Assembly: GCA_000002445.1 (NCBI GenBank)
Contig: CM000207.1
Span: 416,001-480,000, forward strand
Direction of reading: 5' to 3'
DNA: 64,000 nt
Origin: Trypanosoma brucei
Taxonomy: Eukaryota
Within the stretch, counting starts at the first letter, position 1; every line of letters starts with the position of its first letter. Made by a program: the position numbers and the translations under genes. This document shows positions 1-45,600 of the stretch, in pieces. The notes under the pieces are model-generated. The model was not told the origin of the DNA. It made no database searches and saw nothing but the letters and a program-made list of their open reading frames with translations.

Positions 1-140
1 GCACAGACTGGTTGAAGTGCAACCGCGAGAATATATTTAACACGGCAATGAGTCATGAAGCTCATGGAAACAATGTGTGGCCCCACAACAACAGAATGCA
101 CAGCGCATTGCGATCCTTCTCCACGCACACCGCAGCAAAA

Positions 141-851
141 TCACTTGCTTTGTGGAAACGAAATATCCCAATACGATGAGGGTGTGCACTGCGTGCCACC
201 CTCGTCATCGCTCTCGTTGTGCTCATTATCCTCACCATAGAGCGTGGCATCCTCCAAATAATCCCGAGCACGCTGCCGAGCGGTTCGCATGCGATTAATC
301 GGTTTTCTTAGAGGGACGACTAACTGATCGTCAGACGGGTCTGCGGAGAGCTCCGAACAAGCAAGACGTGGAATTGCGGCTAATATATCCACCGCGGTGG
401 CAGAATTATTCTCGGGGTCCCTTTTTTGCATAACTGATCTCGATGGTGGATCCACACGACGGGGCCGTTTTAGCTTCTTTACAGAAAAAAAATCCTCCAA
501 CTCACGGCGTACAGGTGATGGCGTCGCATTCAACTGCCTCTCACCCCTCAATGCCTCTAGAGACGCAATGGGGGGTGACCCTTCTTGTGTCATTGCATTA
601 CTGGGTGGTGTTTCACAGACCATTGTGTCTTGCTTATACACGCATTGCTGATCTTCACAGACAGCTGTGATTTCCTGCTCCGGGAGCTCCTCAGGCAGCT
701 CATCACGTTCCAAGCAGTCCGCCAAATACTCCAGCAGAGCAGCACGGGCATTGAGAGCGGCCTCTTCCTCCTGCAATGCGCGGATTTGCTCCTCATGCAG
801 CTGTAGTAGTCCCGCAAGAGAAGACGTGACGCTGTCGCCGCGTGAATCCAT
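141..851 (-). CDS. Hypothetical protein with a predicted coiled-coil segment. The tracked ORF runs to 1010, but the first 53 codons look like 5' flank, so the start is placed at the internal Met (MDSRGDSV).
   Basis: The ORF is 289 aa. The ATG (cat on the plus strand at 849-851) gives MDSRGDSVTS. A purine-rich plus-strand tract (about 900-1060), i.e. polypyrimidine on the coding strand, sits immediately upstream. The heptad-like segment LLQLHEEQIRALQEEEAALNARAALLEYL supports a coiled coil. I recognise no family. Confidence 0.5.
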   Translation of the reverse strand: MDSRGDSVTSSLAGLLQLHEEQIRALQEEEAALNARAALLEYLADCLERDELPEELPEQEITAVCEDQQCVYKQDTMVCETPPSNAMTQEGSPPIASLEALRGERQLNATPSPVRRELEDFFSVKKLKRPRRVDPPSRSVMQKRDPENNSATAVDILAAIPRLACSELSADPSDDQLVVPLRKPINRMRTARQRARDYLEDATLYGEDNEHNESDDEGGTQCTPSSYWDISFPQSK

Positions 852-1109
852 CACGAACCCCCGACCCATGCATGTCGCTTTTGTAGCCTTGACGCTAAAG
901 CGTGCAAAACACTCAGTGGAAAAAAGGGAATAAATAAATAAGGAAATAGGTGAGCGCAAATGGAGGAAAATCACAGTTGCCACACGGAGAAGACCAAAAG
1001 CGCAAGACAAAAAAGGGGTAATAGGCGAAAATAACCGTGTTAGGGGCCATTAAAGAACACCCAAAAGAAAAGGTTAAATAAATGAACCGGTATCTCACAA
1101 TATGTCGCA

Positions 1110-1493
1110 TCAAACCTTCACGGCGTATATGCGCCTCGGGAATTTGTGGGCCATGCGGAGTTGGCGGCGGGTCTTACGGTTCTTCTCGTTGGCCTTCAGT
1201 GCTAGGCGACGCCGGTGTGTCAGCTTTGCACGAAGTGTTTTGGGCTTCGCCGACCGCAGCTTCTTGTCCGAATAAAACTTGCGGAGGTTTTCACGTTCGT
1301 TCTTGTTAAGCACCGTCATTATGCGGGCAATGCCTTTGCGAATGGTGCGAATGCGACCAAGACGAGCAGCACCAACGTTCATCTGCTGAGAGACACGAAG
1401 TTGCGACAACTCCTTCTTGAATTCAGAAAGCTGCTTCAGCAGGTCATCCTTCCCCTTTTCCTTCAGGTCACGGATTTTGACGATGTGCGACAT
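1110..1493 (-). CDS. RPL35: 60S ribosomal protein L35 (uL29 family), copy 1. The 127-aa protein starts at MSHIVKIRDL, inside the longer tracked ORF.
   Basis: The translation MSHIVKIRDLKEKGKDDLLKQLSEFKKELSQLRVSQQ...IARIMTVLNKNERENLRKFYSDKKL...RRIYAVKV aligns by eye with eukaryotic RPL35. Shared features include the LLKQL..ELSQLRV and ENLRKFY motifs and the C-terminal YAVK. The ATG is at 1491-1493 on the reverse strand. Confidence 0.9.
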   Translation of the reverse strand: MSHIVKIRDLKEKGKDDLLKQLSEFKKELSQLRVSQQMNVGAARLGRIRTIRKGIARIMTVLNKNERENLRKFYSDKKLRSAKPKTLRAKLTHRRRLALKANEKNRKTRRQLRMAHKFPRRIYAVKV

Positions 1494-1787
1494 GGTTTGT
1501 GCACCTACTCCACACCAAATCGAAAACAATGTAAAGAAAGAACAAGATAGAGAGACAAAAAGAGCGAATTATTAACTAGCACGGCCACTACATCAAACGC
1601 ACAGGTAACAATGCCCGACGCGGGTAGGGGAATGGGGGGCAATCAGCGACGTCACTGGACATCGAGATGTTACGTATGCAAATTGGCAGAAGCAATCACT
1701 AAAGGGAACTTAAAAATAAAAGAAACGAAAAGGAAGAGCGGCTGCGCGGACTACCGTACACTAAACAGTATGTCACAATATGTCGCA

Positions 1788-2171
1788 TCAAACCTTCACG
1801 GCGTATATGCGCCTCGGGAATTTGTGGGCCATGCGGAGTTGGCGGCGGGTCTTACGGTTCTTCTCGTTGGCCTTCAGTGCTAGGCGACGCCGGTGTGTCA
1901 GCTTTGCACGAAGTGTTTTGGGCTTCGCCGACCGCAGCTTCTTGTCCGAATAAAACTTGCGGAGGTTTTCACGTTCGTTCTTGTTAAGCACCGTCATTAT
2001 GCGGGCAATGCCTTTGCGAATGGTGCGAATGCGACCAAGACGAGCAGCACCAACGTTCATCTGCTGAGAGACACGAAGTTGCGACAACTCCTTCTTGAAT
2101 TCAGAAAGCTGCTTCAGCAGGTCATCCTTCCCCTTTTCCTTCAGGTCACGGATTTTGACGATGTGCGACAT
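1788..2171 (-). CDS. RPL35: 60S ribosomal protein L35 (uL29 family), copy 2, with the same 127-aa protein as copy 1.
   Basis: Its 127-aa translation is identical to copy 1. The ATG is at 2169-2171 on the reverse strand. The DNA appears identical to copy 1 across the CDS. Confidence 0.9.
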   Translation of the reverse strand: MSHIVKIRDLKEKGKDDLLKQLSEFKKELSQLRVSQQMNVGAARLGRIRTIRKGIARIMTVLNKNERENLRKFYSDKKLRSAKPKTLRAKLTHRRRLALKANEKNRKTRRQLRMAHKFPRRIYAVKV

Positions 2172-2600
2172 GGTTTGTGCACCTACTCCACTACAACCTT
2201 TACGGAGAAGTAGAAACGCGACATCGCAGTTTGAAATTGGGAAGAGACTGACAGCACTGCGTACAGAAGACAAGAACAGTGTAGGATCGTTCTCCAAATA
2301 CCTAATATAAGTGCTGATAGTGTGAACGAATTAGCGTAGTGGTAAATACGAAACAACGGTGTGAGGAGAACAAAGTGGCTCGCAGTGAAACGAACATCAA
2401 ACATGATAAATTGCTCCACAACTCAACTGTCTTTATAACGTGCCAGACCTGTACTCTCCTTCCACGCACCCCACCGTTCCTTTTTAAGTTTCTTTTTCTT
2501 CCTCACTCTTTGTGGCTCCATGATCTAACAATTTTTTTTCATTTACATAGAAGTGGTAAGTGGTAGATGAGCGGGCAAATATACAGAAAAACACATGAAC

Positions 2601-4310
2601 CTACAGATACGTAATACCTGGCGTTATGTCTACAGGAATCACGCGGTCCATTTGAACCGCAAAGGCGGCGGGGCCCGGCGCAATCGCCATAGCCAGTACC
2701 GGTTCATCGCCAATGACTTTGTAGCTTGTAAAGCTTAGCCGAAAAAACTTATCACGCGGCGTGTCATATGTGGCGGTTGAGACGCTTTTCATAGCCTCAC
2801 TTCGTTTCTCTACTGCCTCACGTAAATCGGCCAGCTCAGCATTGCGCTCCTTCTCCCTCTCCTGGGTAAACTCAGATAGTTCCTTCTTCTGCTGTTCATC
2901 TAGAAGTTCAAGAGGGTCATCTTCTTCACTCTGCTCCTCCTCATCTTCAAGCTCCTCCTCCTCCTCAGCAAACTCATCGTCCCCTTCCTCCATCTCATCT
3001 TCTTCTTCGTCTTCCTCATCTTCCTCAGCGGCTCGGGCCTTCCGCTCCGCACGAGCTGCGGCGCGCGCTGCAGCGCGCTCCTTTCTCTCTTCAGCCCTCT
3101 TCGCAGCCCGTGCCTTCCTAGCAGCCTTCACCAACTCCTTCTTCTTTTGGGCAACGGCCTTCCGACAGCGACGAAAAATCACCCGTTTGGCAATAAGGAG
3201 CGTTTGACGCATCTCACGAGTATCCATCCGTACGCACGACGAGTTTCGCGAAAGAAATTGGAGCACCGTCTTTGACAGTGCGCGCACATCTATACCCAAA
3301 ACGTATCCCTCCGAGGCGCCCACGAAGCAAAAAGCAGCCTCCTCACGTCTGGCAGCCACGGTGTGTGGCGTTATTGGAATTTCAACGGTACCAACAGCGT
3401 CGACCCTCTGGATAGGGGGTTCAGGTCGCCCCTTTAGAGCAGACTTCAACGAGGATTTATTACCTTCAGCCGCCTGGGAGTTAGAAACACTAAGCGACCC
3501 GCTCCTTACCAGTCCGTCAGTTTGGGGAGCTACGTTCTCCGAATGTGACAACGCACCTTCCGCCAGTTCTCCCTGGCTTTCAAGGTCATTCTCATCTTCA
3601 TCTGCACCTGGTTCTTTAAAGGATACAGTCGCTTGACGATTCAGGATGCCTGATATGTACAAGGCCTCATTTTGATCCATCTCACTAGGATCTGGTAGCC
3701 GCCATATTTTCATTGTGAGATCACGGCTGAAGGAAAAGAGTAGCTGCCCCTCCGCTACAACACGCAGGCACTTGACGTGATTAGTGTGGCCAATAAGCAC
3801 CCGAACAGTTTTCCCCGTTCTGCCGTCCCACACGCGTATTTGATTATCGTATCCACCAGTAACAATAATCTGTGCCTCCTCTGAGGCACATGCGATGCAG
3901 GAAAGAACATCTTTGTGACCCGGCAACGCAGAACGCCGTTCCCCTGATATCACTTGCAGGCATCCATTGTCATCGCCAGCGTAGAGGCGGTCACCGCACA
4001 TCGCAAGACAGCGCAAAGGAACAACAATTTTAATTAACTTTAAGCACCGTTGTGGTGTCTCTTGCTCGGGGTCAACTGACCACTGTCGAATGTTGCCGTC
4101 CATAGCACAAGTAAACACCTGATCCAACGCCGGGGCCACAATTGCAGTGACAGTTTTAGTATGGCCGTAGAATGTCACGATAGGTGTTCCCCCACGCGTG
4201 ATATCCGACAGTTTGTAATAGTCAACCGTGCCATCCTCTCTACCAACGAATAGTGGCACGGGATCCTCCTCGGGAATAGTACAAAGAGCTGTGACTGTGC
4301 GTTTAGCCAT
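2601..4310 (-). CDS. WD40-repeat protein with a central hyper-charged segment (a basic K/R/A stretch followed by a long D/E run).
   Basis: The ORF is 569 aa. The N-terminal half shows WD40-type signatures (IRVWDGRTGKTVRVLIGHTNHVKCLRV, TMKIWRL, GHTKTVTAI...FTCAMDGNIRQW). The charged segment is KKKELVKAARKARAAKRAEERKERAAARAAARAERKARAAEEDEEDEEEDEMEEGDDEFAEEEEELEDEEEQSEEDD. Confidence 0.7.
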   Translation of the reverse strand: MAKRTVTALCTIPEEDPVPLFVGREDGTVDYYKLSDITRGGTPIVTFYGHTKTVTAIVAPALDQVFTCAMDGNIRQWSVDPEQETPQRCLKLIKIVVPLRCLAMCGDRLYAGDDNGCLQVISGERRSALPGHKDVLSCIACASEEAQIIVTGGYDNQIRVWDGRTGKTVRVLIGHTNHVKCLRVVAEGQLLFSFSRDLTMKIWRLPDPSEMDQNEALYISGILNRQATVSFKEPGADEDENDLESQGELAEGALSHSENVAPQTDGLVRSGSLSVSNSQAAEGNKSSLKSALKGRPEPPIQRVDAVGTVEIPITPHTVAARREEAAFCFVGASEGYVLGIDVRALSKTVLQFLSRNSSCVRMDTREMRQTLLIAKRVIFRRCRKAVAQKKKELVKAARKARAAKRAEERKERAAARAAARAERKARAAEEDEEDEEEDEMEEGDDEFAEEEEELEDEEEQSEEDDPLELLDEQQKKELSEFTQEREKERNAELADLREAVEKRSEAMKSVSTATYDTPRDKFFRLSFTSYKVIGDEPVLAMAIAPGPAAFAVQMDRVIPVDITPGITYL

Positions 4311-13131: not shown

Positions 13132-13953
13132 CTACTTCCAAGTTAAAGAATAAAGATCATGACGGACTCCACTCAGTATTGGAATCATGTTTCTTGTTGT
13201 TTTGACCATGTTTATGTCCAAATCCGCATCAAAATAAGTTTCTCCCTCATCAGCCATGGCAATTACCCTCCCCATTGGGTCCACAATTATCGAATGACCC
13301 CATGCCACGTACTCTCCCCCTGCATCACGAGCAGGGGAACACATGATAACAAACTGTTGGTTGTCCACAGCACGAGACTTGGCAGCGATTTCCCAGTGCG
13401 CTGGCCCAGTTACCATGTTAAACGCAGCGGGGTAAACCAGGAAAGAGGTTCCCTCCGCTGCGTACTTCCACGCCAAAAACGGAAACCGCACATCAAAACA
13501 TATACCAAGTCCGAACTTTACGTCGCCCTCGATAGTGACGGGTGTGGCGTCCGATCCCGCAGAGAGGACTTCTCCCTCATCCATTTTGAGTGTATCGGTA
13601 TTGATTCGAAAGAGGTGGACCTTGCGGTGGATATGCTTTAAGTCTCCTCTAGGGTCGAATACCATCGCCGAGTTAAACAGCTTCCCTTCCAACCTTTCCG
13701 GTATGCTCCCTGCAACAACCCAAACCGAGTTCTCCCTTGCTACTTTGGACATAGCATCAAATGTAGGAAACCCCGCTTGTACCTCCTCCGAATACTCCGC
13801 GAAGTACTTCGTCCCATATGGGCAATTGAAGCACTCGGGCAACACCACAAAGTCAGTACCGCGCTTCGCTGCAGCAGCAATCATTTCCACAGCTTTGCGA
13901 ATATTGGCTTCCTTGGACTTACCAACAGTCATCTGACACAAAGTAACGCGCAT
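13132..13953 (-). CDS. Carbon-nitrogen hydrolase (nitrilase superfamily), omega-amidase / Nit2-like.
   Basis: The 273-aa protein has the Glu-Lys-Cys catalytic triad in canonical contexts: VVLPECFN (Glu), HRKVHLF (Lys) and GLGICFDVRFP (Cys). Its overall length and motif order match Nit2/omega-amidases. Confidence 0.85.
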   Translation of the reverse strand: MRVTLCQMTVGKSKEANIRKAVEMIAAAAKRGTDFVVLPECFNCPYGTKYFAEYSEEVQAGFPTFDAMSKVARENSVWVVAGSIPERLEGKLFNSAMVFDPRGDLKHIHRKVHLFRINTDTLKMDEGEVLSAGSDATPVTIEGDVKFGLGICFDVRFPFLAWKYAAEGTSFLVYPAAFNMVTGPAHWEIAAKSRAVDNQQFVIMCSPARDAGGEYVAWGHSIIVDPMGRVIAMADEGETYFDADLDINMVKTTRNMIPILSGVRHDLYSLTWK

Positions 13954-14695
13954 TCTGACTTACCTCCCCCTTTAACTCCTAGTGGAACCAATATTTTGTG
14001 TTTGTCCTATTGTATTTCTAGTTTTTTCTTTTTTGTAATCGTATAAATTGATTTATCCCTTCGCAGTAACAAATGATGTCTGAAGCCCCTTTATTACCTC
14101 CTCTAACTGAAAGGTCCTTGAAAAGCTTAGACAAGATCGAAGAGGAATATTTTCCATTATAGTATCTACGGCGCTTCTCGAAGGAAGTCTCATCGAATTA
14201 TGCATTACAAAACAAACCAGAAAGTAAGCACAACAAATTCATTAGTCACATAGCACTTTATACAGGCAGCTGCGCATGTTACGCCAATGCAACCATACTT
14301 GATAACGGTGAAGGAAGAGCGGCTTCTCCACAAAAAACTCCAGGGTCGATCATACACAAGACCCCGTCCACGGTTCCACTGGGCCGGTTCGTCGTAAAGA
14401 CACTCGCTATTGCAGTGCAGAAAATATAAGATAACTTAAAGCAGCGGGCACACAATCACAGCAACAACGCCTTGTGTGCATAAAACCGGGGGGAAAAGCA
14501 GCGACGCAACGTTAATCTAGCGCATTCATGTAGCATTTTCTGCTGCTGACGCAAGCGTTCACGTAGCATTCCCCAGTGAACTTCCCTACTAGTCACTTTT
14601 GCAAAACAAAAAAATCGACACCACCTTGCAACTCCCAATAAATCACAAAACCGACTCAAATATTGCTCAAACACCACAAAGCCATCTTCGCGCAG

Positions 14696-14745
14696 TGCCA
14701 GGGTCCAGCACCCCGCCTCATCGGGGGAAGCCAAGAGTCAGCAGA
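14696..14745 (+). promoter_or_regulatory. Pr77-like internal promoter/5' hallmark of L1Tc-family retroelements, partial because the first about 25-30 nt appear missing or diverged.
   Basis: The sequence tgccagggtccagcaccccgcctcatcgggggaagccaagagtcagcag is compared from memory with the published Pr77 consensus (..TGCCAGGGTCCAGTACCCCGTATCATCGGGGGAAGCCAAGAGCCAGCAGC). An exact alignment against L1Tc/ingi references is needed. Confidence 0.5.
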
Positions 14746-14813
14746 GTTCCTTTCATGGGGAACACTGCTGTGCTCCGGCTACGGCATCATACAGCACAGG
14801 GATCAGCAGCGTC

Positions 14814-15473
14814 TTGCTGGGACACCGTTTTTTATTTGTCGATCCCTGGGCACGTGCCATCAGTAGTATCATCCGCACTAAGATGCTGCTGTCCGGTGAT
14901 GTGGAAGAGAATCCCGGCCCGTCGTTTCGCGGGATGCAGTGGAACTGCGCCGGGCTATCTCAAGGAAAGAGATTAGCACTCCACAAAACCCTTGTTGATG
15001 AGCGGATTGCCTTTTGTCTGTTGAGCGAGACAAGGATGACGCCTGGAGAGGCGGCTTGCTTTAGCGTTGCTGGCTACCAACATCACGTAATAGCTCGTAA
15101 CTGCAAAGGAGGTGCTATATCAATACTAGTGAGGGAGGACCTGCCAGTCGAGACCGGTATGGTCGTCGTTGGTCGCATTGAACAAGTGCATGCAACAATT
15201 CACCTTGCACGTGGAACGGCGCTGACTGTCACGTCGGCACACATCCCACCAAAACACACCTTCACGGCAACTGACCTAGATACGCTTCTGACGACTGACG
15301 GTGCCCAGCTCATCGGTGCAGACGCTAACGCACACGCGTTGGCATGGGATCGCGCGAGCCCACCAAATACCAAGGGTGAAACCCTCACACAGTGGTGCAT
15401 TGACAACCAGTTTCTGGTCTGCAACACTGGTGAGTGCACAAGATACGCGCCACCACGGGGAGTCCACCCCTGA
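14814..15473 (+). pseudogene. Retroelement ORF fragment carrying an N-terminal 2A peptide plus an AP (apurinic/apyrimidinic) endonuclease domain. It is frame-disrupted relative to the downstream RT ORF.
   Basis: The 219-aa ORF reads MLLSGDVEENPGPSFRGMQWNCAGLSQGKRLALHKTLVDERIAFCLLSETR..., an exonuclease-endonuclease-phosphatase fold signature. It ends at a TGA while the alternate frame continues (..HHGESTPDVTLSRNCRVYTWISLYSPDSDHH), which indicates a 1-nt indel. Confidence 0.75.
14898..14921 (+). other. Viral-type 2A 'ribosome-skipping' motif D-V-E-E-N-P-G-P near the N-terminus of the retroelement polyprotein.
   Basis: The sequence gatgtggaagagaatcccggcccg encodes DVEENPGP, preceded by LLSG; the canonical 2A C-terminal consensus is D(V/I)ExNPGP. 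Functional 2A sequences are established at this position in L1Tc/ingi elements. Confidence 0.7.
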
Positions 15474-17640
15474 TGTGACACTGTCAAGGAATTGTAGAGT
15501 GTACACGTGGATATCGCTGTATTCTCCCGATAGCGATCACCATCACATATTTTTCGACGTTATCGTTGGAGACGAAACAGATGCGCTGAGCTGCCCGCGG
15601 CCTCGAAAGCCCATGTACGCATGGCTAAAAGCTGACTGGAGGAATTTCCGTCTGAAGGTTGACGAGTACTGCAGGAAAATTGGTAGAAAGAAGAACGTCA
15701 ACACCCTGGAACAGAAATTGAGCTCCGCCATCCGCATTGCGACGAAGGTCTCCGTCCCCCGTGGCTGCAGAGCAACGCCACCACATTGGACACCTGCGCT
15801 CGCGAAACTCGATGAAGAGATCGCTGGATGCGGACCCTCCCACCGAAGGGAAAAGTTGGTAGCCACGCGTAAGCAGATCCTGGACCGTACCACAAAGAAG
15901 AGATGGAGCACGCTATGCTCCAGACTTGCGGTGTCAGACCGCTGCAGTTGGCACATTGTCAAGAAGGTATATGCACCACGACCACTAACCACACCGGCGG
16001 CGCTGGTTGATAACGCGGCCATCACGGACTACCGTCAAGCTGAGAGGTTCATTAAACTGTACTCGTCCCGCGCAAGAAGACACCCCGACTCACACCCACC
16101 GGCACCCATAAAGACGACAGCGAGTGAGTTCAGTCCCATCACGATGGCTGAACTACGGAGATCGATCAAACTGCTACCGAGTGGATCCGCAGCCGGACCT
16201 GATTGCTTATACAACGAGGCACTACAACATATCGGTAGAACAGCGCTGAATGTTGTTCTGAGGCTATTCAACGAGAGCCTACGAACGGGAGTCGTGCCGC
16301 CTGCATGGAAGACTGGTGTTATCATCCCCATCCTGAAGGCCGGAAAAAAGGCGGAGGACCTCAAATCTTACAGGCCTATGACACTCACGAGCTGTCTCTG
16401 CAAAGTCATGGAACGCATAATTGCCGCGAGGCTTAGAGACACTGTTGAGTCCCAGCTGACGCCGCAGCAATCAGGCTTTCGCCCCGGATGCTCAACGCTC
16501 GAACAACTCCTGCACGTCCGTGCTGCCCTCTGCCGTCCCACGCACCAATATCGTACGGGTGCTGTATTCGTCGACTACTCGAAGGCATTCGATACAGTAG
16601 ACCATGACAAAATTGCGAGGGAAATGCACAGAATGAAGGCATCACCCCACATTGTGAAGTGGTGCGTATCATTTCCGAGTAACCGAACTGGCAGAGTGAG
16701 ATTCAAGGAGAAGCTTTCCAGAAGCAGAACATTTGAGCGAGGAGTGCCACAAGGAACTGTCCTTGGCCCAATCATGTTCATTATTGTCATGAACTCGTTG
16801 AGCCAATGCCTTGCAGAAGTGCCGTTACTGCAGCACGGATTCTTTGCAGACGACCTAACGCTACTTGCGAGGCACACAGAGAGGGATGTCATCAACCACA
16901 CGCTACAATGCGGCCTAAACGTGGTGTTACAGTGGTCAAAAGAGTACTTCATGTCTATCAATGTAGCGAAAACAAAGTTCACACTCTTCGGGTGTATAGA
17001 GCGCCACCCCCTTACATTACAACTGGACGGCGAAAGAATAGGAGCTGACAGGACACCGAAGCTTCTAGGAGTAACATTCCAGTGTCTGCAAGGGATGGCA
17101 ACACATGCGACCGAAACGGGACGCAAGATGGACTTCAGACTACTGCAGATAGCGGCCATCTCAGCTTCTACATGGGGGCCAAGAAGACAAGTACTGAGAG
17201 CTTTTTATCTAGCACTCGTACAGGCACACACCATGTATGGCATTGAGGTATGGTACTGGTATGCTTGGAAACGAAGTCGCGACCTCCTTGCAGCAGCGCA
17301 ACACAAAGCCAGTCGCATCATAGCTGGCATACCGCATGGGACGCGCGAAGAGGACTCTCTGCTGGAAGAAAACCTCCTGCCACTCAAGACGACCACTCTT
17401 GTGCGCAGCATGAAATTCATGCTGATGTGTGAGTCACGAGGCGGATGTTTGCGCTGCAGTGCTGAGGAAGTATACCGCAGCAAACACCCAGTCAGAGCCC
17501 TACATTCCCGCAGCATGCGGTCCTACCCCCACCTCCGCATTGAGCCATGGAAACAACCACTTTGGCCGGCGGTTCTTCAATGTAACTGCAGGACGATATT
17601 TTACACATGGGACAAGCCCGTGGGCAACGGGCACCCCTGA
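15301..17640 (+). pseudogene. Retroelement reverse-transcriptase ORF (non-LTR RT domain). Its N-terminus carries the tail of the APE domain in a shifted frame, and it stops before any recognisable RNase H/zinc-finger region.
   Basis: The ORF is 779 aa. RT motifs are visible in order: PILKAGKK..YRPMTLTSCLCKVMERI (finger/palm), a central motif at FVDYSKAFDTVDH, and the catalytic F/YxDD at HGFFADDLTLLA (16841-16870). Downstream frames (17429-18550) are fragmented. Confidence 0.8.
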
Positions 17641-19980
17641 CGATATGAAAAAGGAAGCTTCTGAGAAATGTGTAAAAAGCAAACGCAAAAGACAAATGGA
17701 GGAGGGTTCATACGCCGAAAAAAATAGGGATATTCAATAAGATGGACTCAAAAGTTTCAACAGATGGTGAGTTTAGGCAGTTCGTCCGGCGCAGAAATGG
17801 TAATCTTCGGCAACATGGAAAAATACAGAATTAAAGGGATAGCGGAATATTGGGATGCAGTCATTGTGCGGAAGCAGTGCCAATGGAAAAGATGCTAAAC
17901 ACGGTACTGGACACAATGAAAGGCAGAGTCGCGTGGAGGATGGAATCCCGAGCCGCGTATGGAAGGGTGATTTTCACAGTCAGTTAAAAGAATGAGGTGA
18001 TTTCTATGCAGCTTATTTTCTTCCACCACGTTGTTTGGAAAGAGAGTGCAATATCAGATGAGATTACAGTCAAAAACAACTGCAGAAAGGCACACCTAAC
18101 GTGTAAAGTTGATATTTTGGTGGGAGACATGAAACAGAAGCGTAACAAAAGAACACGCTGCATTCGAAGCTGGATAAGGGCGAAACGCGCACAGCAGTCT
18201 TGGCGGCACTCAACTCGACCCGAGGAAGCTGCAACCCACCAGCATGGAGAAAATTATATCCGACTTGTTCCGTGCAGGTGCCCCCAAGCACCTTGTGCGA
18301 TTCCGAAGGACTACCGTTCCTAATAAGCAGGGGAACAAATGCGGATGCCACAGCATTCAAGAAGAAATTGAGAGAAAACGGCCCTACACATATCGAAAGA
18401 ACTAGGCGCAACGTGGCTATTCCTGAACTTAGAGGGAAGAATTCGGCTTCTGGTGACGTTGCCAGAGTGCAGTTTGATATGATAATGACGACATGCGGCG
18501 GACAACCACGCGGTAAAAAGGCACGATCATATGGTATTCTTCACTGATATGTTAAACGTGAAGTACACGGACAAACATGAGGGAGTAACCATATCAGGAA
18601 AGGTGAGCAGAAGGAAGCGGAGGGAATAAGAAGGTTAGCGCCGTGAAGGTGCAACGGTGCTTCCCTGGTGGCGGAAGAGTTGCTGGAAATATGGGCGGCG
18701 AAACCATCACATTGCGTCCAAACGTAATGCTAATGGGAGGGACTCCGTACGGCAAAGCAATGTGGGGAGGGGGACGGAATGCAGCAGCCATAAGAACGTT
18801 TACAGAAGAGGGAACGAGGATATTAACCGTGCCATTTGAACATCACACTCTATTGGCGTGTTTAAGTTCACGTCTCAAAAAGGTTGGTCTGGCGAGGCGC
18901 CTGTGATGAGTGCGCGGTTGCGGAGGGAAGTCCGCGACCATTAAAAAACCAGGGTCCCAAAGACCCTCCGGCGGTCCGCACAGAAAGTCAGCAGTACAAA
19001 CGCTAGGGAATAAAATAGGGCACGTGAGTGCAGGAGAGCAGCAGCTACGCTCGCACGTAAAACTGGCAGCGTTCCAACTGAAGCTCTACAGGTCGCTGAA
19101 CGGGCACAAAACCATCATCGCGGACAACGGAACGGAATCAAAGGAAAGGAGCTGTCCAATGACCTCTCGCCTTCTTTTGGCAACCATTCTCGACCCTACT
19201 CCACAGCAGTATCGCACTCTTGAACGGCGTCAAAGGTTCCCTGCCTAAATGAACGCGTTTTCAAGGTAATCGAAGGTTGTCCAGTGGCTTCGGGGGTGCA
19301 CGTGTGCGAAGCGGTCTTACTTGCTCGAGGTTTTGTATAATGAAGTGGTTTTCACTGTGATGGGGCACCGACGGCCGCACAGGTTAAGCGCCTAACTTGA
19401 AAAAGTATTTACTCTCTTTTTTTTTTTTTTGCATCAACCTTTACTAACTGTTGATTGCAATGCACTGCCGCCATTGAGCTACCTAATCGCACTGCTGTGC
19501 CGTGGTGGGGGATTTCCCCTCTCCGTGGTTGGTGCCTTTTTGTAAACATCAACAAACGGTAGTGGAGGTGGTGTTAGGGAGAAACGTACCAACAGTTTAC
19601 GAAGGGGTAAGGAGAGATGCAGTCAGCCGGGAACGACGATAGTGTCCGATCCGGTTCATGACTGAGGGAACGAGAGAACATGCGACACAGGACGCCCACT
19701 TCGCAATTTTTTTAAAAAATTGGTGCGTGTTTATAACTATAAGCAAAACACTTGTAATTGTTCACTCATGTGGGTGCGCACTACCCACATATCTGTCTAG
19801 GAAGAGGTAAAAGACGTGGGAAATATGATTTTCATGAAGCTGAATCTCGGTGGCGCTTGAGGACGGAAATCGCCTTCCCACCGCGGTTTGTAGACTGTAT
19901 GGCTTTTCCTCCCTTAGTAGCAATCGCTGCACACGTACACACACAAAAAAAAAAGGAACATTAGACCGAGAATCTTCCGA

Positions 19981-21909
19981 TTATTCACTCAGTACCTTAA
20001 CAAACTCATTCGGCCGAAGCAAGGACGTCCCTCCAATGATAAACTCGCACCCAAGTTTCTTTGTTGCCTCATACGCTGCTCGAATTTCACTGAAGGTAAT
20101 TCCACCCAACACAAAAAATACGAAGCGCTGTTTGCTCGACCGCCCACCAACGTTCCCAGTGCCCGCCAAATCGTGTACTGCCTTCGGTAGCGGGGGGAGC
20201 GCGGCAATAGCGGCGAGAGGTTTTTCACTGGCGCTGCTAAGCGTATCGCTTATGGCGGATCCTTTGTCACTCCATAACGCACTCGACCCCAGAGCCACAC
20301 GCAATGACTTTTTTGTGTTCGCACCGCCGGAAGGGGCGGTATTGGAAGTGGCATCCCCGCTGGACTCATCTGACCGTGTCACATACTTATAGTCCGCCGT
20401 GTCAAGTTTGTTCCCTGCCAAGGCTTCCATAATCTGATATGTCTGCGTGATGAAAGGGTCTTTTTCCGCCGAAGTTTTTGCATTCCGCCCCTCGGGATTA
20501 AGTTTTCCTACTCTGCTCGTCAGTTGTTCTAGTTTAGAGAAGGCGCCAGCTACCTCCGTTAGTTCTGACTGTTTGATAAGCGTTTGTTTCTTTGCCTCTG
20601 AGTATTCAGAGGTGTCAGTTGCAGCGGACAGCAACAAAAGCAGCCGCAGTCGCACATCCCTCGGCACTGCCTGATCCTTTATGATGTGCCGCACCGTTTC
20701 AAAGTTCGTTTTGAACGACTTACGACCAGCAGCTATATCCTGCTCTGCTTCGCAGACAACATCGAGGCATTGTTCCCGATAAAGATTAAAAATTTTTGTG
20801 CAGATATCAATGTGTACAGACAACCTTCCTTGATCCTTCTGAAACGTAGAGAGCACCCGCGTGACATTGCTAAGTTCCGTGATGCTTGGTGATGCTTCCC
20901 TCGTGTTAACCAGATGGGGATTCTCATTGTGGAGTTTCTTGAGTTCTGCAGGAAACTCTTCCATGCACTCGGCGAAAAACCGATGTCGGTACTGACACCA
21001 GTAGGGGTCCTCTTCATCGACGGAGAGTTCACGCGTGGAGCGCTCCCCCGAGCGTGTTTCAAACTTTTGCACGTACATATCGTTTTCGAGGGGCATCAAA
21101 TCTTCCAGTAAACATTGGTATGTTCTGTGGTGCATCAGCGGGGTAACGGTGTCGAACGACCTATCGAGAATAATCAACACGGGTTTACTGCTGTCCACCC
21201 CGTCGTCGTCAACCCCATTTTCAAAGTTTGGTACACTGATGGCCAACTTGGCCAGTTCGTCTAGCAGTAATCGAGAGAATACCTCGCAGCTCTGGCTTCT
21301 CCCCTGGGCGCGGACAACAGGAATACCACCTCCCATTGCATGAAGTACTTGTGTTAGCCGCGCTGCGGCTTCAGACAGAAAACTCTCACACTGTGGTGAC
21401 TGCATGGGTAACATCAGTCTTGATAAATCATTCTGCATATTGAAGTGGAAGACTAATCGCTCGGGGACCAAGAAATTCAGCATCATATCTTTAAAACCGG
21501 TCACTCTCTGCGCAACTCTTGCGCGCGCAAGTCGTTGCATGTAACTGTCAGGGGTCGTTCCCAGGGCAAAAAGGTGAACCTCCTTGTACGGGTCCTTTTC
21601 TTCCCAGTCATCAATGATGCGCTCCACCGACTCGTCGTTGGGATCAAAGAAGTACATGGCGGGTAGGCAGATTAAGGGTTGCCGTTTCTTTTTAAGGTCC
21701 TCCACTAACGCGACTCCATGTTCCATGAGGTCATTCATTCTCGCAAAACTATTGAGAACCACCGCTGAGGGGGGGTCGCAAATGATAACTTTATATTTCC
21801 CGGGAACGGCGTCTAGCATGTTTTTAAACACATACCTTTGCACGCAGCTGCGTATGCCCGGACTTTCAGGCGGTTTCTGTTTCGACAGCTTTGCATGGTT
21901 GCTCATCAT
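19981..21909 (-). CDS. Sec1/Munc18 (SM) family protein (syntaxin-binding; vesicle-fusion regulator). The paralogue (Sec1, Vps45, Sly1 or Vps33) is not assignable by eye.
   Basis: The 642-aa protein has SM-family hallmarks: PVLIILDRSFDTVTPLMHHRTYQCLLEDL (the ILDR...D..TP..H..TYQ motif) and the C-terminal FVFFVLGGITFSEIRAAYE (the VGG.T..E motif). A purine-rich tract lies upstream at 21930-22010. Confidence 0.85.
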   Translation of the reverse strand: MMSNHAKLSKQKPPESPGIRSCVQRYVFKNMLDAVPGKYKVIICDPPSAVVLNSFARMNDLMEHGVALVEDLKKKRQPLICLPAMYFFDPNDESVERIIDDWEEKDPYKEVHLFALGTTPDSYMQRLARARVAQRVTGFKDMMLNFLVPERLVFHFNMQNDLSRLMLPMQSPQCESFLSEAAARLTQVLHAMGGGIPVVRAQGRSQSCEVFSRLLLDELAKLAISVPNFENGVDDDGVDSSKPVLIILDRSFDTVTPLMHHRTYQCLLEDLMPLENDMYVQKFETRSGERSTRELSVDEEDPYWCQYRHRFFAECMEEFPAELKKLHNENPHLVNTREASPSITELSNVTRVLSTFQKDQGRLSVHIDICTKIFNLYREQCLDVVCEAEQDIAAGRKSFKTNFETVRHIIKDQAVPRDVRLRLLLLLSAATDTSEYSEAKKQTLIKQSELTEVAGAFSKLEQLTSRVGKLNPEGRNAKTSAEKDPFITQTYQIMEALAGNKLDTADYKYVTRSDESSGDATSNTAPSGGANTKKSLRVALGSSALWSDKGSAISDTLSSASEKPLAAIAALPPLPKAVHDLAGTGNVGGRSSKQRFVFFVLGGITFSEIRAAYEATKKLGCEFIIGGTSLLRPNEFVKVLSE

Positions 21910-42697: not shown

Positions 42698-45600
42698 TCA
42701 TCGTTCATTGTAAAGGTGAATGGCATTTTCCTGCGGTGTGTACCTGCTGGGGACCCAAGAACGAACTTGAACCCTCGAGGCCACGGGTTGGACCCGAGTC
42801 ATCGAGAACCGCGAGGGTGTAGGACCGACAGGTGTGCAGTGGTAATGCGCATTGGCGACTCGTGAAGCGATCCTCCCCAACCTCCTCGCAGTTTGGGACG
42901 TCGAATCCACTGTTGTACTCAAAGCGTTAGAACCGGTTGGAGAATATGGTGGTCCCCAACTGCTGGAGTGGTGCGACGGAGAACCAGGGGAAAGGCGATT
43001 CCAGCCATCCCTTTCCGTTAGCGTTGACGTACTGTCTTGGTAACTCTGTTGAGTGAATACAGGAGAAGGCATCCTTCCGCTTGGCGCCGCTCTCATGGCT
43101 GATTGAAGTGTTGGTGCCCATGAATTTGGCACCTGTTGTTGGGGGGATAGGGAGCGCGAAGCTCCCTGCACTATTTCACGTTGGTGTTCTGAGAAGGATA
43201 GGCTAAGGCGTTTTCTTTGCGGAGGTGGGTGGGGTTGCAGATATTCACCGCGACCCAGCTGGCCAGGCCCCGGTTGGGTACTCATAAAAGCTGAGCCTTC
43301 TGAGTGCGGTTCGTACAAACCACTGGTTTCACTACGCACCTCAGCGACGGGCGGTAAAGTAACGCGCTGACGACCCAACTCACCACCCAGTCCGCTGTTG
43401 GCTTTATTTTGATGTTGCTTTGATCGATTATAAGCATTGGAGATGGTGCTTCTCTTGGCTGGTAACCGCGGTGGCCGTAAGTTGACACCATCACCAAACC
43501 CTAGGTCTGGATACAGCCCAAGATACACAAGCCGCTCACCCTGGAAATCGGGACCAAAAGGCTCAGAGTTGCCGGTGTCTTGTGCAAGATTCAGTTTTCG
43601 AGAGCTCCCTGATGATGACGGACGTGCGGCAGAAGCTATCGCATCCCTTGCAGCAACAGCTCTCAAACAAGATATACTACTTGCGGGTCTCTCACCAGTG
43701 ACAGAGGGGGTGAAACGACTCGAAGTGCGGAGGGCGGGGGAACCCAAAGATTCACTTCGGCCAGCACCTGGACGAAGGGAGCAGGGCGACCCACCATCGA
43801 CCACCCACGGACGCCGATTTTCAGCTTCTGCAGACTGCAAAGACACGTTACGACCAGTATTCTCCTCTTTCGTATCGTGAAGAACTCCATCGCAGCTGAA
43901 AACAACAGAGGGAGATGCAGCTGATTGATTCTTTTCGCGGTAATCAAATGGGGAACTGCCGACATCCCGCGCATTCAGGACGCAGTGTTGGAGATCACGG
44001 CGCCGCGGTGCAGAAAAACGTGACGGTGTCCCCGACAATTTCGAGTGACTACGCATAGATGATGACACATCGGGCAGAGCGCTAACACCTCCAGCTTCTT
44101 TATCGCTGACGTTAGCAATGTCACCGCTCATACTGATAGTTGAACCTACCCGTTCCGTGGACACTCCTTCCGCTTTTGGTGAGTCATCGGCATTGTTATT
44201 GGCTTCAGCAGTTTGACACCGCCTTCGATTATTTGGCAGTCGCGCAGTTTTTTCCTTTGATGATACACCGGCAGAGGCACACCCACTACCCAAAGCATTG
44301 TTCAGTGTGGTAATCACGGCATCACGTGCAGCGTCAACAGCCGAGTTTTTCACAGCACTCCTCAAAGTTGATCTAACAGCAGAGACTCCACCCCCCGTAG
44401 GGGCACCATCATAAATCATATTTGACATTTCTTCCGACGACCAGCGTATAAACTCCTCACCATCAACAACTAGCTGAGCGCAGACATCAACAGAAACGAC
44501 GATTGCTTCACCAAATACAACAGGTTCCACAACAGCAGATGAAAAACTTGTTAACTTACCGCCCCTCCGAGTGTCAACAGATCCCACTTCACCCCCCTTC
44601 ACCGACAACACATCAACATCCTTTGACAACGAGGAAATCTCTCGCATTTCATTGCAGGCATCAGCCTCAAAACGAAATACTTTCCCCTCAACACCAGAAT
44701 TATCTAATGTAAGGCGATTAGCAGAAGAGACGTCACTACCAACAGATGGTACACCATCAATTTCAAAATCCTCAACATCTTCAGGAGCAGCTGTTCCTGT
44801 AACATCAGTTTTACTTCCCTCGCCATCACAAACAAATCCATCACTTCCACCATCCTCTTTGCTCAGTTCCTTTGCATCAACATCAGCTGTGGGAATAGCT
44901 GCATCCTCTTTGCTCAGTTCCTTTGCATCATCATCAGCTGTAGGAATAGCTGCATCCTCTTTGCTCAGTTCCTTTGCATCATCATCGGCTGTGGGAATAG
45001 CTGCATCCTCTTTGCTCAGTTCCTTTGCATCATCATCAGCAGTGGGAATAGCTGCATCCTCTTTGCTCAGTTCCTTTGCATCATCATCAGCTGTAGGAAT
45101 AGCTGCATCCTCTTTGCTCAGTTCCTTTGCATCAACATCAGCTGTGGGAATAGCTGCATCCTCTTTGCTCAGTTCCTTTGCATCAACATCAGCTGTGGGA
45201 ATAGCTGCATCCTCTTTGCTCAGTTCCTTTGCATCATCATCAGCTGTAGGAATGGCTGCATCCTCTTTGCTCAGTTCCTTTGCATCATCATCAGCTGTGG
45301 GAATGGCTGCATCCTCTTTGCTCAGTTCCTTTGCATCATCATCAGCTGTAGGAATAGCTGCATCCTCTTTGCTCAGTTCCTTTGCATCATCATCGGCTGT
45401 GGGAATAGCTGCATCCTCTTTGCTCAGTTCCTTTGCATCATCATCAGCTGTGGGAATAGCTGCATCCTCTTTGCTCAGTTCCTTTGCATCATCATCGGCT
45501 GTGGGAATAGCTGCATCCTCTTTGCTCAGTTCCTTTGCATCAACATCAGCTGTGGGAATGGCTGCATCCTCTTTGCTCAGTTCCTTTGCATCATCATCAG

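What the first reader, a model, noticed from the sequence alone, without database searches (positions are those of the whole stretch)
14690..19400. Degenerate L1Tc-like non-LTR retrotransposon inserted antisense inside a unidirectional polycistronic unit, retaining a Pr77-like promoter
This is the only plus-strand coding feature in 64 kb. Its Pr77-like 5' end at 14696-14745 is a known RNA-pol-II-dependent internal promoter in L1Tc. An intact copy here would drive transcription rightwards, antisense to the Sec1-family gene and against the flow of the host transcription unit. The APE and RT ORFs are out of frame, with a slip near 15430-15470 where one frame reads ..PPRGVHP* and the other ..HHGESTPDVTLS. 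The RNase H/zinc-finger tail is not recognisable, so it is a dead copy of the kind called DIRE in this lineage. It sits between the omega-amidase and Sec1 genes, so it may supply antisense or unspliced transcripts or act as a regulatory/insulating element in the inter-CDS region. A 5' truncation of the Pr77 region of about 25-30 nt is suggested.
Basis: partly seen in the sequence, partly recalled or inferred. Interest (0 to 1): 0.6.

Follow-up and report, generated by a model that had tools for sequence, protein, structure and literature searches.

The report
Dead ingi retroelement, half refreshed
This is an immobile copy of the well-known Trypanosoma brucei "ingi" jumping gene lying backwards between two host genes; its front 2.85 kb looks young, its rear is an ancient wreck, and the remnant of its internal promoter lacks the bases shown to be essential, so it is an ordinary relic rather than a new regulatory element.

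Summary
Window 14695-17545 (+) is 94.7% identical to a canonical 5.26-kb T. brucei ingi. It carries the Pr77 remnant (+29..+79), an intact 2A peptide, and APE and RT ORFs split by a private 2-bp deletion near 15445. It lies antisense between a CN-hydrolase (omega-amidase-like) gene and a Sec1 gene in an otherwise minus-strand gene array.

The organism is the T. brucei group, so the element is Tbingi, not L1Tc.

Identity to ingi collapses within 90 nt, from 92% to 54% at about 17545. A stop-riddled RNase H remnant is detectable only to 17921. No zinc fingers, 3' RIME half or poly(A) were found.

The young/old junction sits at about 17545 here and in T. equiperdum OVI, but at about 17635 in T. 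b. gambiense. The ingi part is 93-98% identical to every copy compared, while the tail is 98-99% identical between strains. The best reading is an old DIRE partly overwritten by ectopic recombination or gene conversion with active ingi copies.

The promoter idea is not supported. Pr77 +1..+14 is unrecognisable, and the essential DPE (CGTG, +25..+28) reads CGCA.

In gambiense and T. b. equiperdum IVM-t1 a 41-59 kb VSG-containing segment separates the two halves of this element. This is either real polymorphism or an assembly effect.

The element is a known kind and of low interest.

The parts
13132..13953 (-). Left flanking host gene: carbon-nitrogen hydrolase (nitrilase / omega-amidase-like)
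   Evidence: Pfam CN_hydrolase, E=3e-56. Rounds to 100% identity with the T. equiperdum nitrilase P0133.
14681..14694 (+). Diverged 14 nt aligned to Pr77 +15..+28 (8 of 14). The DPE position reads CGCA instead of CGTG. Alternatively, this is part of a target-site-like direct repeat.
   Evidence: nhmmer alignment; identity counts; direct repeat 14674-14694 vs 19104-19124, 17 of 21. The same junction is present in T. equiperdum OVI, T. b. gambiense and IVM-t1.
14695..14745 (+). Pr77-hallmark remnant, ingi positions 29-80
   Evidence: 45 of 52 columns identical to the canonical ingi. An exact CCAGGGTCCAGNACCCCG match occurs only here in the window.
14862..14921 (+). 2A-like peptide coding sequence SSIIRTKMLLSGDVEENPGP, with the motif intact
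   Evidence: Translation. The alignment shows NPGP here and NPRP in the reference copy L002. 2A in L1Tc: PMC5814959.
14853..15452 (+). AP-endonuclease coding region
   Evidence: tblastn with T. vivax ingi-like P0003, aa 22-221, 42% identity. Pfam PF14529 and PF03372.
15444..15447 (+). Private 2-bp deletion that shifts the frame between APE and RT
   Evidence: Pairwise and three-way alignments: the canonical ingi and the gambiense copy keep the 2 nt. The HSP frame change lies between 15452 and 15463.
15463..17545 (+). Reverse-transcriptase region of the young part. It is open in one frame and retains the FADD motif.
   Evidence: Pfam RVT_1, E=3e-44. 90% aa identity to T. b. equiperdum ingi protein P0001. 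95.2% nt identity. dN/dS 0.37 against the reference copy.
17546..17921 (+). Old, degenerate continuation (RT C-terminus and start of RNase H), colinear with ingi but only 40-70% identical, with stops and frameshifts
   Evidence: Identity falls from 92% to 54% between adjacent 90-nt blocks, Fisher p=8e-9. nhmmer reaches 17876. tblastn P0003 aa 948-1032, E=2e-5. Profile HMM E=2e-6.
17922..19103 (+). Purine-rich tail of undetermined origin. It may be the further-decayed DIRE 3' part and/or native intergenic or Sec1 3'UTR sequence.
   Evidence: No significant match to ingi DNA or to ingi-clade C-terminal profiles. A frameshift-tolerant alignment exceeded only 98-99 of 100 shuffles. There are 19-28 stops per frame. 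It is 98-99% identical between strains.
19104..19124 (+). Copy of the sequence that precedes the element (possible vestigial target-site duplication)
   Evidence: 17 of 21 matches to 14674-14694; the 12-mer 19113-19124 matches 14683-14694 at 10 of 12. Not conclusive.
18596..18635 (-). Strong polypyrimidine tract on the host-sense (minus) strand, a candidate trans-splicing/polyadenylation signal
   Evidence: Composition scan. Function is inferred only.
19981..21909 (-). Right flanking host gene: Sec1/Munc18 family (syntaxin-binding protein 1)
   Evidence: Pfam Sec1, E=4e-102. 99% identical to the T. b. gambiense protein P0121.

Best explanation
The feature is an immobile relic of the T. brucei ingi retroposon family. 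It sits in the Sec1-amidase intergenic region, on the strand opposite to the host polycistronic unit, and it is a mosaic.

The mosaic. An ancient ingi-related insertion (DIRE grade) occupies the locus. Its 5' 2.85 kb (14695-17545) now carries young Tbingi sequence. The most likely cause is ectopic homologous recombination or gene conversion with active ingi copies. The rest (17546 onward) keeps the old, decayed sequence.

Why it cannot move. The APE-RT frame is broken by a 2-bp deletion. RNase H is wrecked. The zinc-finger/chaperone domain, the 3' RIME half and the poly(A) tail are all missing.

Why it cannot start its own transcription. Pr77 positions +1..+14 are absent, and the essential downstream promoter element reads CGCA instead of CGTG. 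The same loss removes the 5' part of the HDV-like ribozyme.

How it is transcribed (inferred). It is transcribed passively by read-through of the host unit. That produces antisense-ingi RNA, which can pair with sense ingi RNA from other copies and feed the DCL/AGO1 siRNA pathway.

Its other likely effect (inferred). It offers a block of homology for recombination. In two other T. brucei assemblies its two halves are separated by 41-59 kb of VSG-containing DNA.

Shown here: identity, anatomy, lesions, the step in divergence, and the differences between strains. Inferred: the gene-conversion mechanism, promoter death (extrapolated from T. cruzi L1Tc mutagenesis), and the antisense-siRNA contribution.
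For: Identity and organism:
- 94.7% nt identity to a canonical 5256-bp ingi over positions 29-2890.
- 90% aa identity to a T. b. equiperdum ingi protein.
- The flanks are 99.3-99.6% identical to T. equiperdum OVI contigs.

Lesions:
- 2-bp deletion.
- The tail has 19-28 stops per frame.
- No ingi homology beyond 17921.
- No poly(A) and no convincing TSD.

Mosaic structure:
- Identity drops from 92% to 54% in adjacent 90-nt blocks, p=8e-9, while staying in colinear register.
- The junction lies at about 17545 in the window and OVI, about 17557 in IVM-t1 and about 17635 in gambiense.
- The ingi part is 93-98% identical to every compared copy, with star-like site patterns (54/38/46 unique sites of 2248). 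The adjacent tail is 98-99% identical between strains.
- dN/dS of 0.37 in the RT region indicates that the donor lineage was under selection.

Promoter:
- The DPE CGTG at +25..+28 and positions +1..+4 are essential, and G28A abolishes activity (PMC4748587).
- The window has CGCA, and 1 of 14 matches at +1..+14.

siRNA context:
- ingi yields 52% of AGO1-bound small RNAs, with equal sense and antisense reads (PMC3447711).
- ingi transcripts are silenced by RNAi and by RBP33 (PMC4162612).

Host strand:
- All Pfam-supported neighbouring genes are on the minus strand.
Against: - Repeats are error-prone in assemblies. The gambiense copy has a 100-N gap inside the ingi, and the OVI contigs break inside it. 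Read mis-placement or polishing could therefore create part of the between-strain differences and junction shifts.
- Gene conversion was not tested with a formal method or with the full set of genomic ingi copies, and no donor was identified.
- Homology of the tail beyond 17921 to ingi is not significant, so the size of the 'old DIRE' is unknown.
- Promoter death is extrapolated from T. cruzi L1Tc to T. brucei ingi.
- No expression or small-RNA data were available.
Confidence: 0.75

Rival explanations
1. First reader's model. The retained Pr77-like 5' end is a working Pol II internal promoter that fires rightwards. It would make plus-strand, unspliced transcripts antisense to Sec1, or act as an insulator or regulator of the intergenic region.
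For: Pr77 positions 29-80 are well conserved, 45 of 52. Pr77 of L1Tc is a proven promoter, and the hallmark is shared by ingi/RIME/DIRE (PMC1874656 abstract; PMC4748587).
Against: Positions +1..+14, including the start site, are unrecognisable. The DPE reads CGCA. Substitution of +1..+4 abolishes L1Tc Pr77 activity, as does complete or partial DPE substitution including G28A. Promoter activity has been shown for T. cruzi L1Tc; none of the papers read here reported a test of T. brucei ingi Pr77. ingi transcripts in T. brucei are removed by RNAi.
Confidence: 0.06
2. Single-age element. One 5'-truncated Tbingi inserted here and simply lost or decayed its 3' half. No gene conversion occurred, and the tail is unrelated intergenic DNA.
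For: The high-identity block ends near 17545-17670, and nothing significant is found beyond 17921. A TSD-like repeat (17 of 21) flanks 14695-19103.
Against: Beyond the junction the sequence stays colinear with ingi at 54-71% identity, and with the RNase H of T. vivax ingi at E=2e-5 to 2e-6. A plain deletion would not leave this. The junction position differs between strains. The ingi part diverges 3-7% between strains against about 1-2% for the tail.
Confidence: 0.1
3. Assembly or deletion chimera. The single element in the window is a fusion of two separate ingi fragments. Copy A (positions 29-1707) lies next to the amidase gene. Copy B (positions about 650 to 2890 plus the tail) lies next to Sec1. 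In other strains these flank a 41-59 kb VSG-containing island. The fusion arose either by real unequal recombination that deleted the island or by collapse during assembly.
For: In gambiense and IVM-t1 the amidase and Sec1 genes are about 41 and 59 kb apart. Copy A ends at ingi 1707 (window 16363), and copy B reaches back to about 617-653. The OVI contigs stop at 14850 and 17467, so only the window's own assembly spans 14850-15272.
Against: T. theileri has Sec1 and the amidase gene 7 kb apart on the same strand, so adjacency is ancestral. In T. melophagium both genes lie on a 129,690-bp contig, but their spacing was not examined. The TREU927 nitrilase and Sec1 proteins carry consecutive accessions, EAN76308 and EAN76309. 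The window's ingi shows no Ns or discontinuity. A real recombinational deletion would be compatible with the best explanation rather than a rival to it.
Confidence: 0.15

Closest known systems
Tbingi (T. brucei ingi, ingi4 subclade; 5.25-kb autonomous retroposon flanked by RIME halves)
   Same: 94.7% nt identity over ingi positions 29-2890. Same order: Pr77 hallmark, 2A peptide, APE, RT. RT FADD motif present.
   Different: It lacks +1..+28 of the hallmark in recognisable form. It has a 2-bp frameshift. It has no intact RNase H, no C2H2 domain, no 3' RIME half, no poly(A), no clear 12-bp TSD and no ingi4 upstream target motif.
DIRE (degenerate ingi/L1Tc-related elements of trypanosomatids)
   Same: The region from 17546 onward is DIRE-like: ingi-related, full of stops and frameshifts, and conserved only as a trace. 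The definition is taken from PMC3820030.
   Different: The 5' 2.85 kb is far too well preserved for a DIRE, with one frameshift, no in-frame stops and dN/dS of 0.37 against another copy. The element is therefore a young/old mosaic rather than a uniformly decayed DIRE.
L1Tc of T. cruzi with its Pr77 promoter and L1TcRz ribozyme
   Same: Same clade and same domain order. It shares the 2A peptide and the 3' two-thirds of Pr77.
   Different: The species and subclade differ: no T. cruzi protein appeared among the best 120 hits. The start site and the DPE needed for promoter activity are missing, as is the 5' part of the ribozyme. Rfam has no model for this ribozyme, so folding could not be tested.
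Endogenous siRNA-producing ingi loci of T. brucei
   Same: It is an ingi sequence placed antisense to Pol II read-through. This is the configuration expected to give antisense ingi RNA, and ingi siRNAs come equally from both strands (PMC3447711).
   Different: No small-RNA or RNA-seq data were examined for this locus. Any contribution from it is inferred.

Membership tests
Tbingi / ingi-L1Tc clade retroposon | Nucleotide and protein homology to ingi APE-RT | tested here: met
   94.7% nt identity over 2.86 kb. 90% aa identity to P0001. Pfam RVT_1 E=3e-44 and Exo_endo_phos_2.
Tbingi / ingi-L1Tc clade retroposon | Complete 76-79-nt 5' signature (Pr77 hallmark) | tested here: not met
   Positions 29-80 are present (45 of 52). 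Positions 15-28 match at 8 of 14 and positions 1-14 at 1 of 14.
Tbingi / ingi-L1Tc clade retroposon | Single long ORF (about 1657 aa) with APE, RT, RNase H and C2H2 domains | tested here: not met
   Frameshift at about 15445. The ORF ends at 17640. Only an RNase H remnant to 17921 was found, and no zinc-finger homology.
Tbingi / ingi-L1Tc clade retroposon | N-terminal 2A-like peptide (D-x-E-x-NPGP) | tested here: met
   SSIIRTKMLLSGDVEENPGP at 14862-14921.
Tbingi / ingi-L1Tc clade retroposon | 3' RIME half and poly(A) tail | tested here: not met
   nhmmer and blastn with the full ingi find nothing beyond 17876. The only A-runs of at least 6 in the tail are 17718-17724, 18943-18948, 19714-19719 and 19945-19954, none next to ingi 3' sequence.
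Tbingi / ingi-L1Tc clade retroposon | 12-bp target-site duplication | tested here: inconclusive
   The best candidate is 14683-14694 vs 19113-19124 (10 of 12, extending to 17 of 21). By a rough calculation of mine, not a tool result, a few 10-of-12 matches are expected by chance.
Tbingi / ingi-L1Tc clade retroposon | ingi4 upstream target motif AxxxxxxxTxxxGTxGGxTxxx^xTxTxxTxxxxx | tested here: not met
   Motif taken from PMC3820030. By my reading of the sequence, none of the 10 specified positions match upstream of 14695, and about 2 of 10 match upstream of 14667.
DIRE | Long ingi-related sequence that has lost coding capacity through many stops and frameshifts | tested here: inconclusive
   Met for 17546 onward (19-28 stops per frame). 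Not met for 14853-17545, which has one frameshift and open stretches of 206 and 751 codons.
Pr77 promoter / L1TcRz dual element | Transcription start nucleotides +1..+4 (CCCT) | tested here: not met
   The window has no recognisable +1..+14 (1 of 14 matches). Substitution of +1..+4 abolishes activity in L1Tc.
Pr77 promoter / L1TcRz dual element | Downstream promoter element CGTG at +25..+28 | tested here: not met
   The aligned bases 14691-14694 read CGCA. The DPE is essential, and G28A is inactivating.
Pr77 promoter / L1TcRz dual element | Promoter activity and ribozyme self-cleavage | not testable with these tools
   No expression data were available. Rfam has no model that recognises even the canonical ingi 5' end.

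The most novel reading that the evidence does not exclude
An ancient DIRE fixed between the amidase and Sec1 genes is repeatedly 'rejuvenated' by ectopic gene conversion from whichever ingi copies are active. It also acts as a recombination gateway. In some T. brucei lineages its two halves flank a 41-59 kb chromosome-internal VSG island that can be gained or lost through the element. Its antisense placement makes it a standing template for antisense ingi RNA that primes RNAi silencing of the family. The presence of a Tvingi in the same relative position and orientation upstream of the T. vivax amidase gene would then reflect an old, shared hotspot.
Probability: 0.25. Interest if true: 0.45.

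Novelty: already known. Interest (0 to 1): 0.22.

Why it matters
As a retroelement call it adds nothing new. ingi, RIME and DIRE in T. brucei, their Pr77 hallmark and their RNAi control are all well described.

Three points have some value. First, the promoter inference from a partial Pr77 match can be rejected on published mutational data, which is a useful caution for annotating 'Pr77-bearing' relics as promoters. Second, the sharp young/old boundary and its different position between strains give a concrete, checkable example of ectopic recombination reshaping a dead retroelement. Third, the same element marks a point where T. brucei assemblies differ by a 41-59 kb VSG-containing segment. 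If that difference is real, it bears on how internal VSG islands are gained and lost.

Tried and rejected
- Rfam scan of 14000-20000 found nothing. It also finds nothing on a canonical ingi 5' end, so the negative result says nothing about the ribozyme.
- Search for a TSD and poly(A): only short or imperfect repeats were found. The best is 17 of 21 at 14674-14694 / 19104-19124.
- The ingi4 target motif upstream of the element is absent (motif; my reading).
- Attempts to extend ingi homology into 17922-19400 all failed to reach significance. nhmmer, sensitive blastn and tblastn with T. brucei and T. vivax proteins were tried. Two profile HMMs of ingi-clade C-termini gave nothing significant past 17921. 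My own frameshift-tolerant aligner gave a score of 56 against a shuffle mean of about 40, and 1-2 of 100 shuffles reached it. This is suggestive only.
- Tested whether the tail is a pseudogene of the 259-aa gene that lies between Sec1 and the amidase gene in T. theileri. There was no tblastn hit.
- Looked for ingi-like sequence at the orthologous interval. None was found in T. theileri, none downstream of T. vivax Sec1, and none within 10 kb upstream of the T. cruzi amidase gene.
- A second Pr77-like motif at 18949-18995 does not pass a 3-mismatch search and was left as a curiosity.
- The gambiense 'VSG flank' of the ingi 5' end was first read as a synteny break. It is joined through a 100-N gap, so it was re-examined with the IVM-t1 long-read contig.
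- Bringaud et al. 2009 (PMC2756862) is not held in the library. I found no paper describing DIRE/ingi conversion mosaics.

Full report
**What is there.** The window carries long minus-strand ORFs with Pfam support: WD40, CN_hydrolase, Sec1, AAA and Yip1. Aminotransferase and ribosomal protein L38e appear as Pfam marks on genes called in the orthologous T. equiperdum locus L001. The only plus-strand ORFs with a protein family are 14814-15473 (Exo_endo_phos_2 and Exo_endo_phos) and 15301-17640 (RVT_1, E=3e-44). Two other plus-strand ORFs have no family. A third, 44571-48503, is the antisense of a 51-bp x 71.5 tandem repeat inside a FAZ1-like minus-strand ORF. The flanks are a carbon-nitrogen hydrolase gene (13132-13953, minus) and a Sec1 gene (19981-21909, minus).

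**Which organism and which element.** The RT ORF is 90% identical to a T. brucei equiperdum 'reverse transcriptase' and about 40% identical to T. congolense and T. vivax ingi-like proteins. The flanks are 99.3-99.6% identical to T. equiperdum OVI contigs. I recovered a canonical ingi from T. b. equiperdum: L002 4513-9768, 5256 bp, starting CCCTGGCG and ending in poly(A). Window 14695-17670 aligns to it at 93.5%. nhmmer extends the match to 14681-17876, which is ingi positions 15-3204. No other ingi-like sequence exists in the 64 kb. The element is thus Tbingi of the ingi/L1Tc clade, not L1Tc itself. It also encodes an intact 2A-like peptide, SSIIRTKMLLSGDVEENPGP (14862-14921), a known feature of L1Tc (PMC5814959).

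**Lesions.** Relative to the canonical copy and to the T. b. gambiense copy, the window has a private 2-bp deletion at about 15445. From the 2A peptide to 17545 there is no in-frame stop other than the one created by this shift: the open stretches are 206 and 751 codons. The RT keeps its FADD motif. dN/dS against the reference copy is 0.37 (28 synonymous and 34 non-synonymous differences in 1401 nt). Much of the 4-5% divergence therefore arose in lineages under selection rather than by decay in place.

**The step.** Identity to ingi is 94.7% over 14695-17545. It then falls to 54% in 17546-17635, is 71% in 17636-17680, and about 40% up to 17876. Adjacent 90-nt blocks differ at 83 of 90 against 49 of 90 matches (Fisher p=8e-9). 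The alignment nevertheless stays colinear. The T. vivax ingi-like protein still matches 17676-17921, the start of RNase H, at E=2e-5, and a three-sequence profile gives E=2e-6. Base composition also changes at 17600: C drops from about 0.28 to 0.17 and purines rise to 0.60-0.65. Beyond 17921 nothing is significant by nhmmer, tblastn, two profile HMMs or a frameshift-tolerant aligner, which was reached by 1-2 of 100 shuffles. There is no zinc-finger region, no 3' RIME half and no poly(A). The tail has 19-28 stops per frame. The secure 3' limit of ingi homology is 17921.

**Comparison between strains.** The T. equiperdum OVI contigs confirm both unique-to-repeat junctions, and both contigs end inside the repeat, at window 14850 and 17467. 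T. b. gambiense DAL972 and the long-read T. b. equiperdum IVM-t1 assembly carry the same old tail next to Sec1, 98-99% identical to the window.
- The switch from canonical to old sequence lies at about 17545 in the window and OVI, about 17557 in IVM-t1 and about 17635 in gambiense.
- Across 15272-17521 the window, gambiense and an unrelated ingi are equidistant: 54, 38 and 46 private sites of 2248.
- The window's ingi part is 93-98% identical to every copy examined, and none is at orthologue grade.

I read this as an old ingi-related insertion whose 5' part has been overwritten, more than once, by ectopic recombination with younger ingi copies.

The caveat is serious. These are repeats, the gambiense copy contains a 100-N gap, and polishing or read mis-placement can produce such patterns.

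**A structural difference at the same place.** In gambiense and IVM-t1 the amidase and Sec1 genes are about 41 and 59 kb apart, with VSG genes between them.
- Next to the amidase gene is a fragment with exactly the window's 5' junction. It ends at ingi position 1707, which is window 16363.
- Next to Sec1 is the tail plus ingi sequence reaching back to about position 617-653.
- In IVM-t1 this second fragment abuts, head to head, a full-length ingi whose 3' TSD (TTGTTGTTTCCA) equals the 12-mer that precedes the gambiense ingi 5' end.

T. theileri has Sec1 and the amidase gene 7 kb apart on the same strand. The TREU927 proteins carry consecutive accessions. The compact arrangement of the window is therefore plausibly real and ancestral. 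Only the window's own assembly spans 14850-15272, however, so a collapse cannot be excluded.

**Promoter question.** Macias et al. (PMC4748587) showed for L1Tc that the 4-nt DPE CGTG at +25..+28 is essential, that G28A alone is inactivating, and that substitution of +1..+4 abolishes transcription. In the canonical ingi these features are present. In the window the bases aligned to +25..+28 are CGCA, +15..+28 match at 8 of 14, and +1..+14 match at 1 of 14. The same truncated junction is fixed in all four assemblies. The hallmark remnant is therefore predicted to be dead as a promoter, and it also lacks the 5' part of the 77-nt HDV-like ribozyme domain (PMC3185411 abstract; PMC4035085). This prediction extrapolates from T. 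cruzi, and Rfam cannot test the ribozyme.

**Most likely behaviour.** The element is immobile and silent on its own strand. Host Pol II read-through on the minus strand would copy it as antisense-ingi RNA. Candidate processing signals on that strand are polypyrimidine tracts at 19823-19799 and 18635-18596. In T. brucei, ingi gives 52% of AGO1-bound small RNAs, with equal sense and antisense reads along the whole element (PMC3447711). ingi transcripts accumulate when RNAi or RBP33 is removed (PMC4162612). A contribution of this locus to that pool is a reasonable inference but is not shown.

**Comparison with what is known, and verdict.** The 5' part meets the homology criteria of Tbingi but fails on the complete 5' signature, the single ORF, the 3' end, the TSD and the target motif (motif from PMC3820030). 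The 3' part fits the definition of a DIRE. Both families, their hallmark and their RNAi control are established. Interest is low.

Noticed in passing
window 18943-18995: An A6 run is followed by CCAGGGTCC and, about 30 nt later, AGTCAGCAG. These are the same two blocks, at the same spacing (within 1 nt), as Pr77 positions about 32-77. This could be the trace of a second, very degenerate retroposon 5' end, or chance. It fails a 3-mismatch search.
   Followed up: partly
window 14674-14694 and 19104-19124: An imperfect direct repeat (17 of 21) lies immediately upstream of the element and again 4.4 kb downstream. It could be a vestigial target-site duplication, which would put the old element's 3' end near 19103, but it is longer than the 12-bp TSD typical of ingi.
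   Followed up: partly
L012/L003 (T. b. gambiense FN554972) and L011/L010 (T. b. equiperdum IVM-t1 QSBY01000014), relative to window 14695-17545: In these assemblies the amidase and Sec1 genes are 41 and 59 kb apart, with VSG genes between them. The element is split into an amidase-side fragment (ingi 29-1707) and a Sec1-side fragment (ingi about 650-2890 plus the old tail). This is either a real indel mediated by the element or an assembly difference.
   Followed up: partly
L010 14244-21869 (T. b. equiperdum IVM-t1): The Sec1-side ingi fragment abuts, across 8 nt, a full-length ingi in inverted orientation. This gives a head-to-head inverted repeat of about 2.4 kb. The full-length copy's 3' TSD TTGTTGTTTCCA matches the 12-mer upstream of the gambiense ingi 5' end.
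   Followed up: partly
L007 996-2700 (T. vivax Y486 CAEX01001325): A Tvingi with a complete 5' signature, truncated after aa 542, lies 2.9 kb upstream of the T. vivax amidase gene and antisense to it. This is the same relative position and orientation as in T. brucei. A surface-protein-like ORF lies between them.
   Followed up: partly
window 44851-48499: A 51-bp unit is repeated 71.5 times (96% matches) inside a 2843-aa minus-strand ORF with a FAZ1 conserved-domain hit. The repeat creates a spurious 1310-aa ORF on the plus strand.
   Followed up: yes
L005 10597-16920 (T. theileri): Between Sec1 and the amidase gene, T. theileri has a 259-aa gene (faint MRP-S34 hit) and 5.5 kb without called genes. 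The 259-aa gene has no counterpart anywhere in the window.
   Followed up: partly
window 19405-19436 and 19945-19954: A T14 run within a 32-nt pyrimidine tract lies on the plus strand, and an A10 run lies 510 nt further right. They form an inverted pair just downstream of the Sec1 stop. No explanation was sought.
   Followed up: no
L002 4700-4780 and 8900-8910: The 'canonical' reference ingi used here is itself not intact. Its 2A motif reads NPRP instead of NPGP, it has a 2-nt deletion near ingi position 1047, and it has an in-frame TAG before the last zinc fingers.
   Followed up: yes
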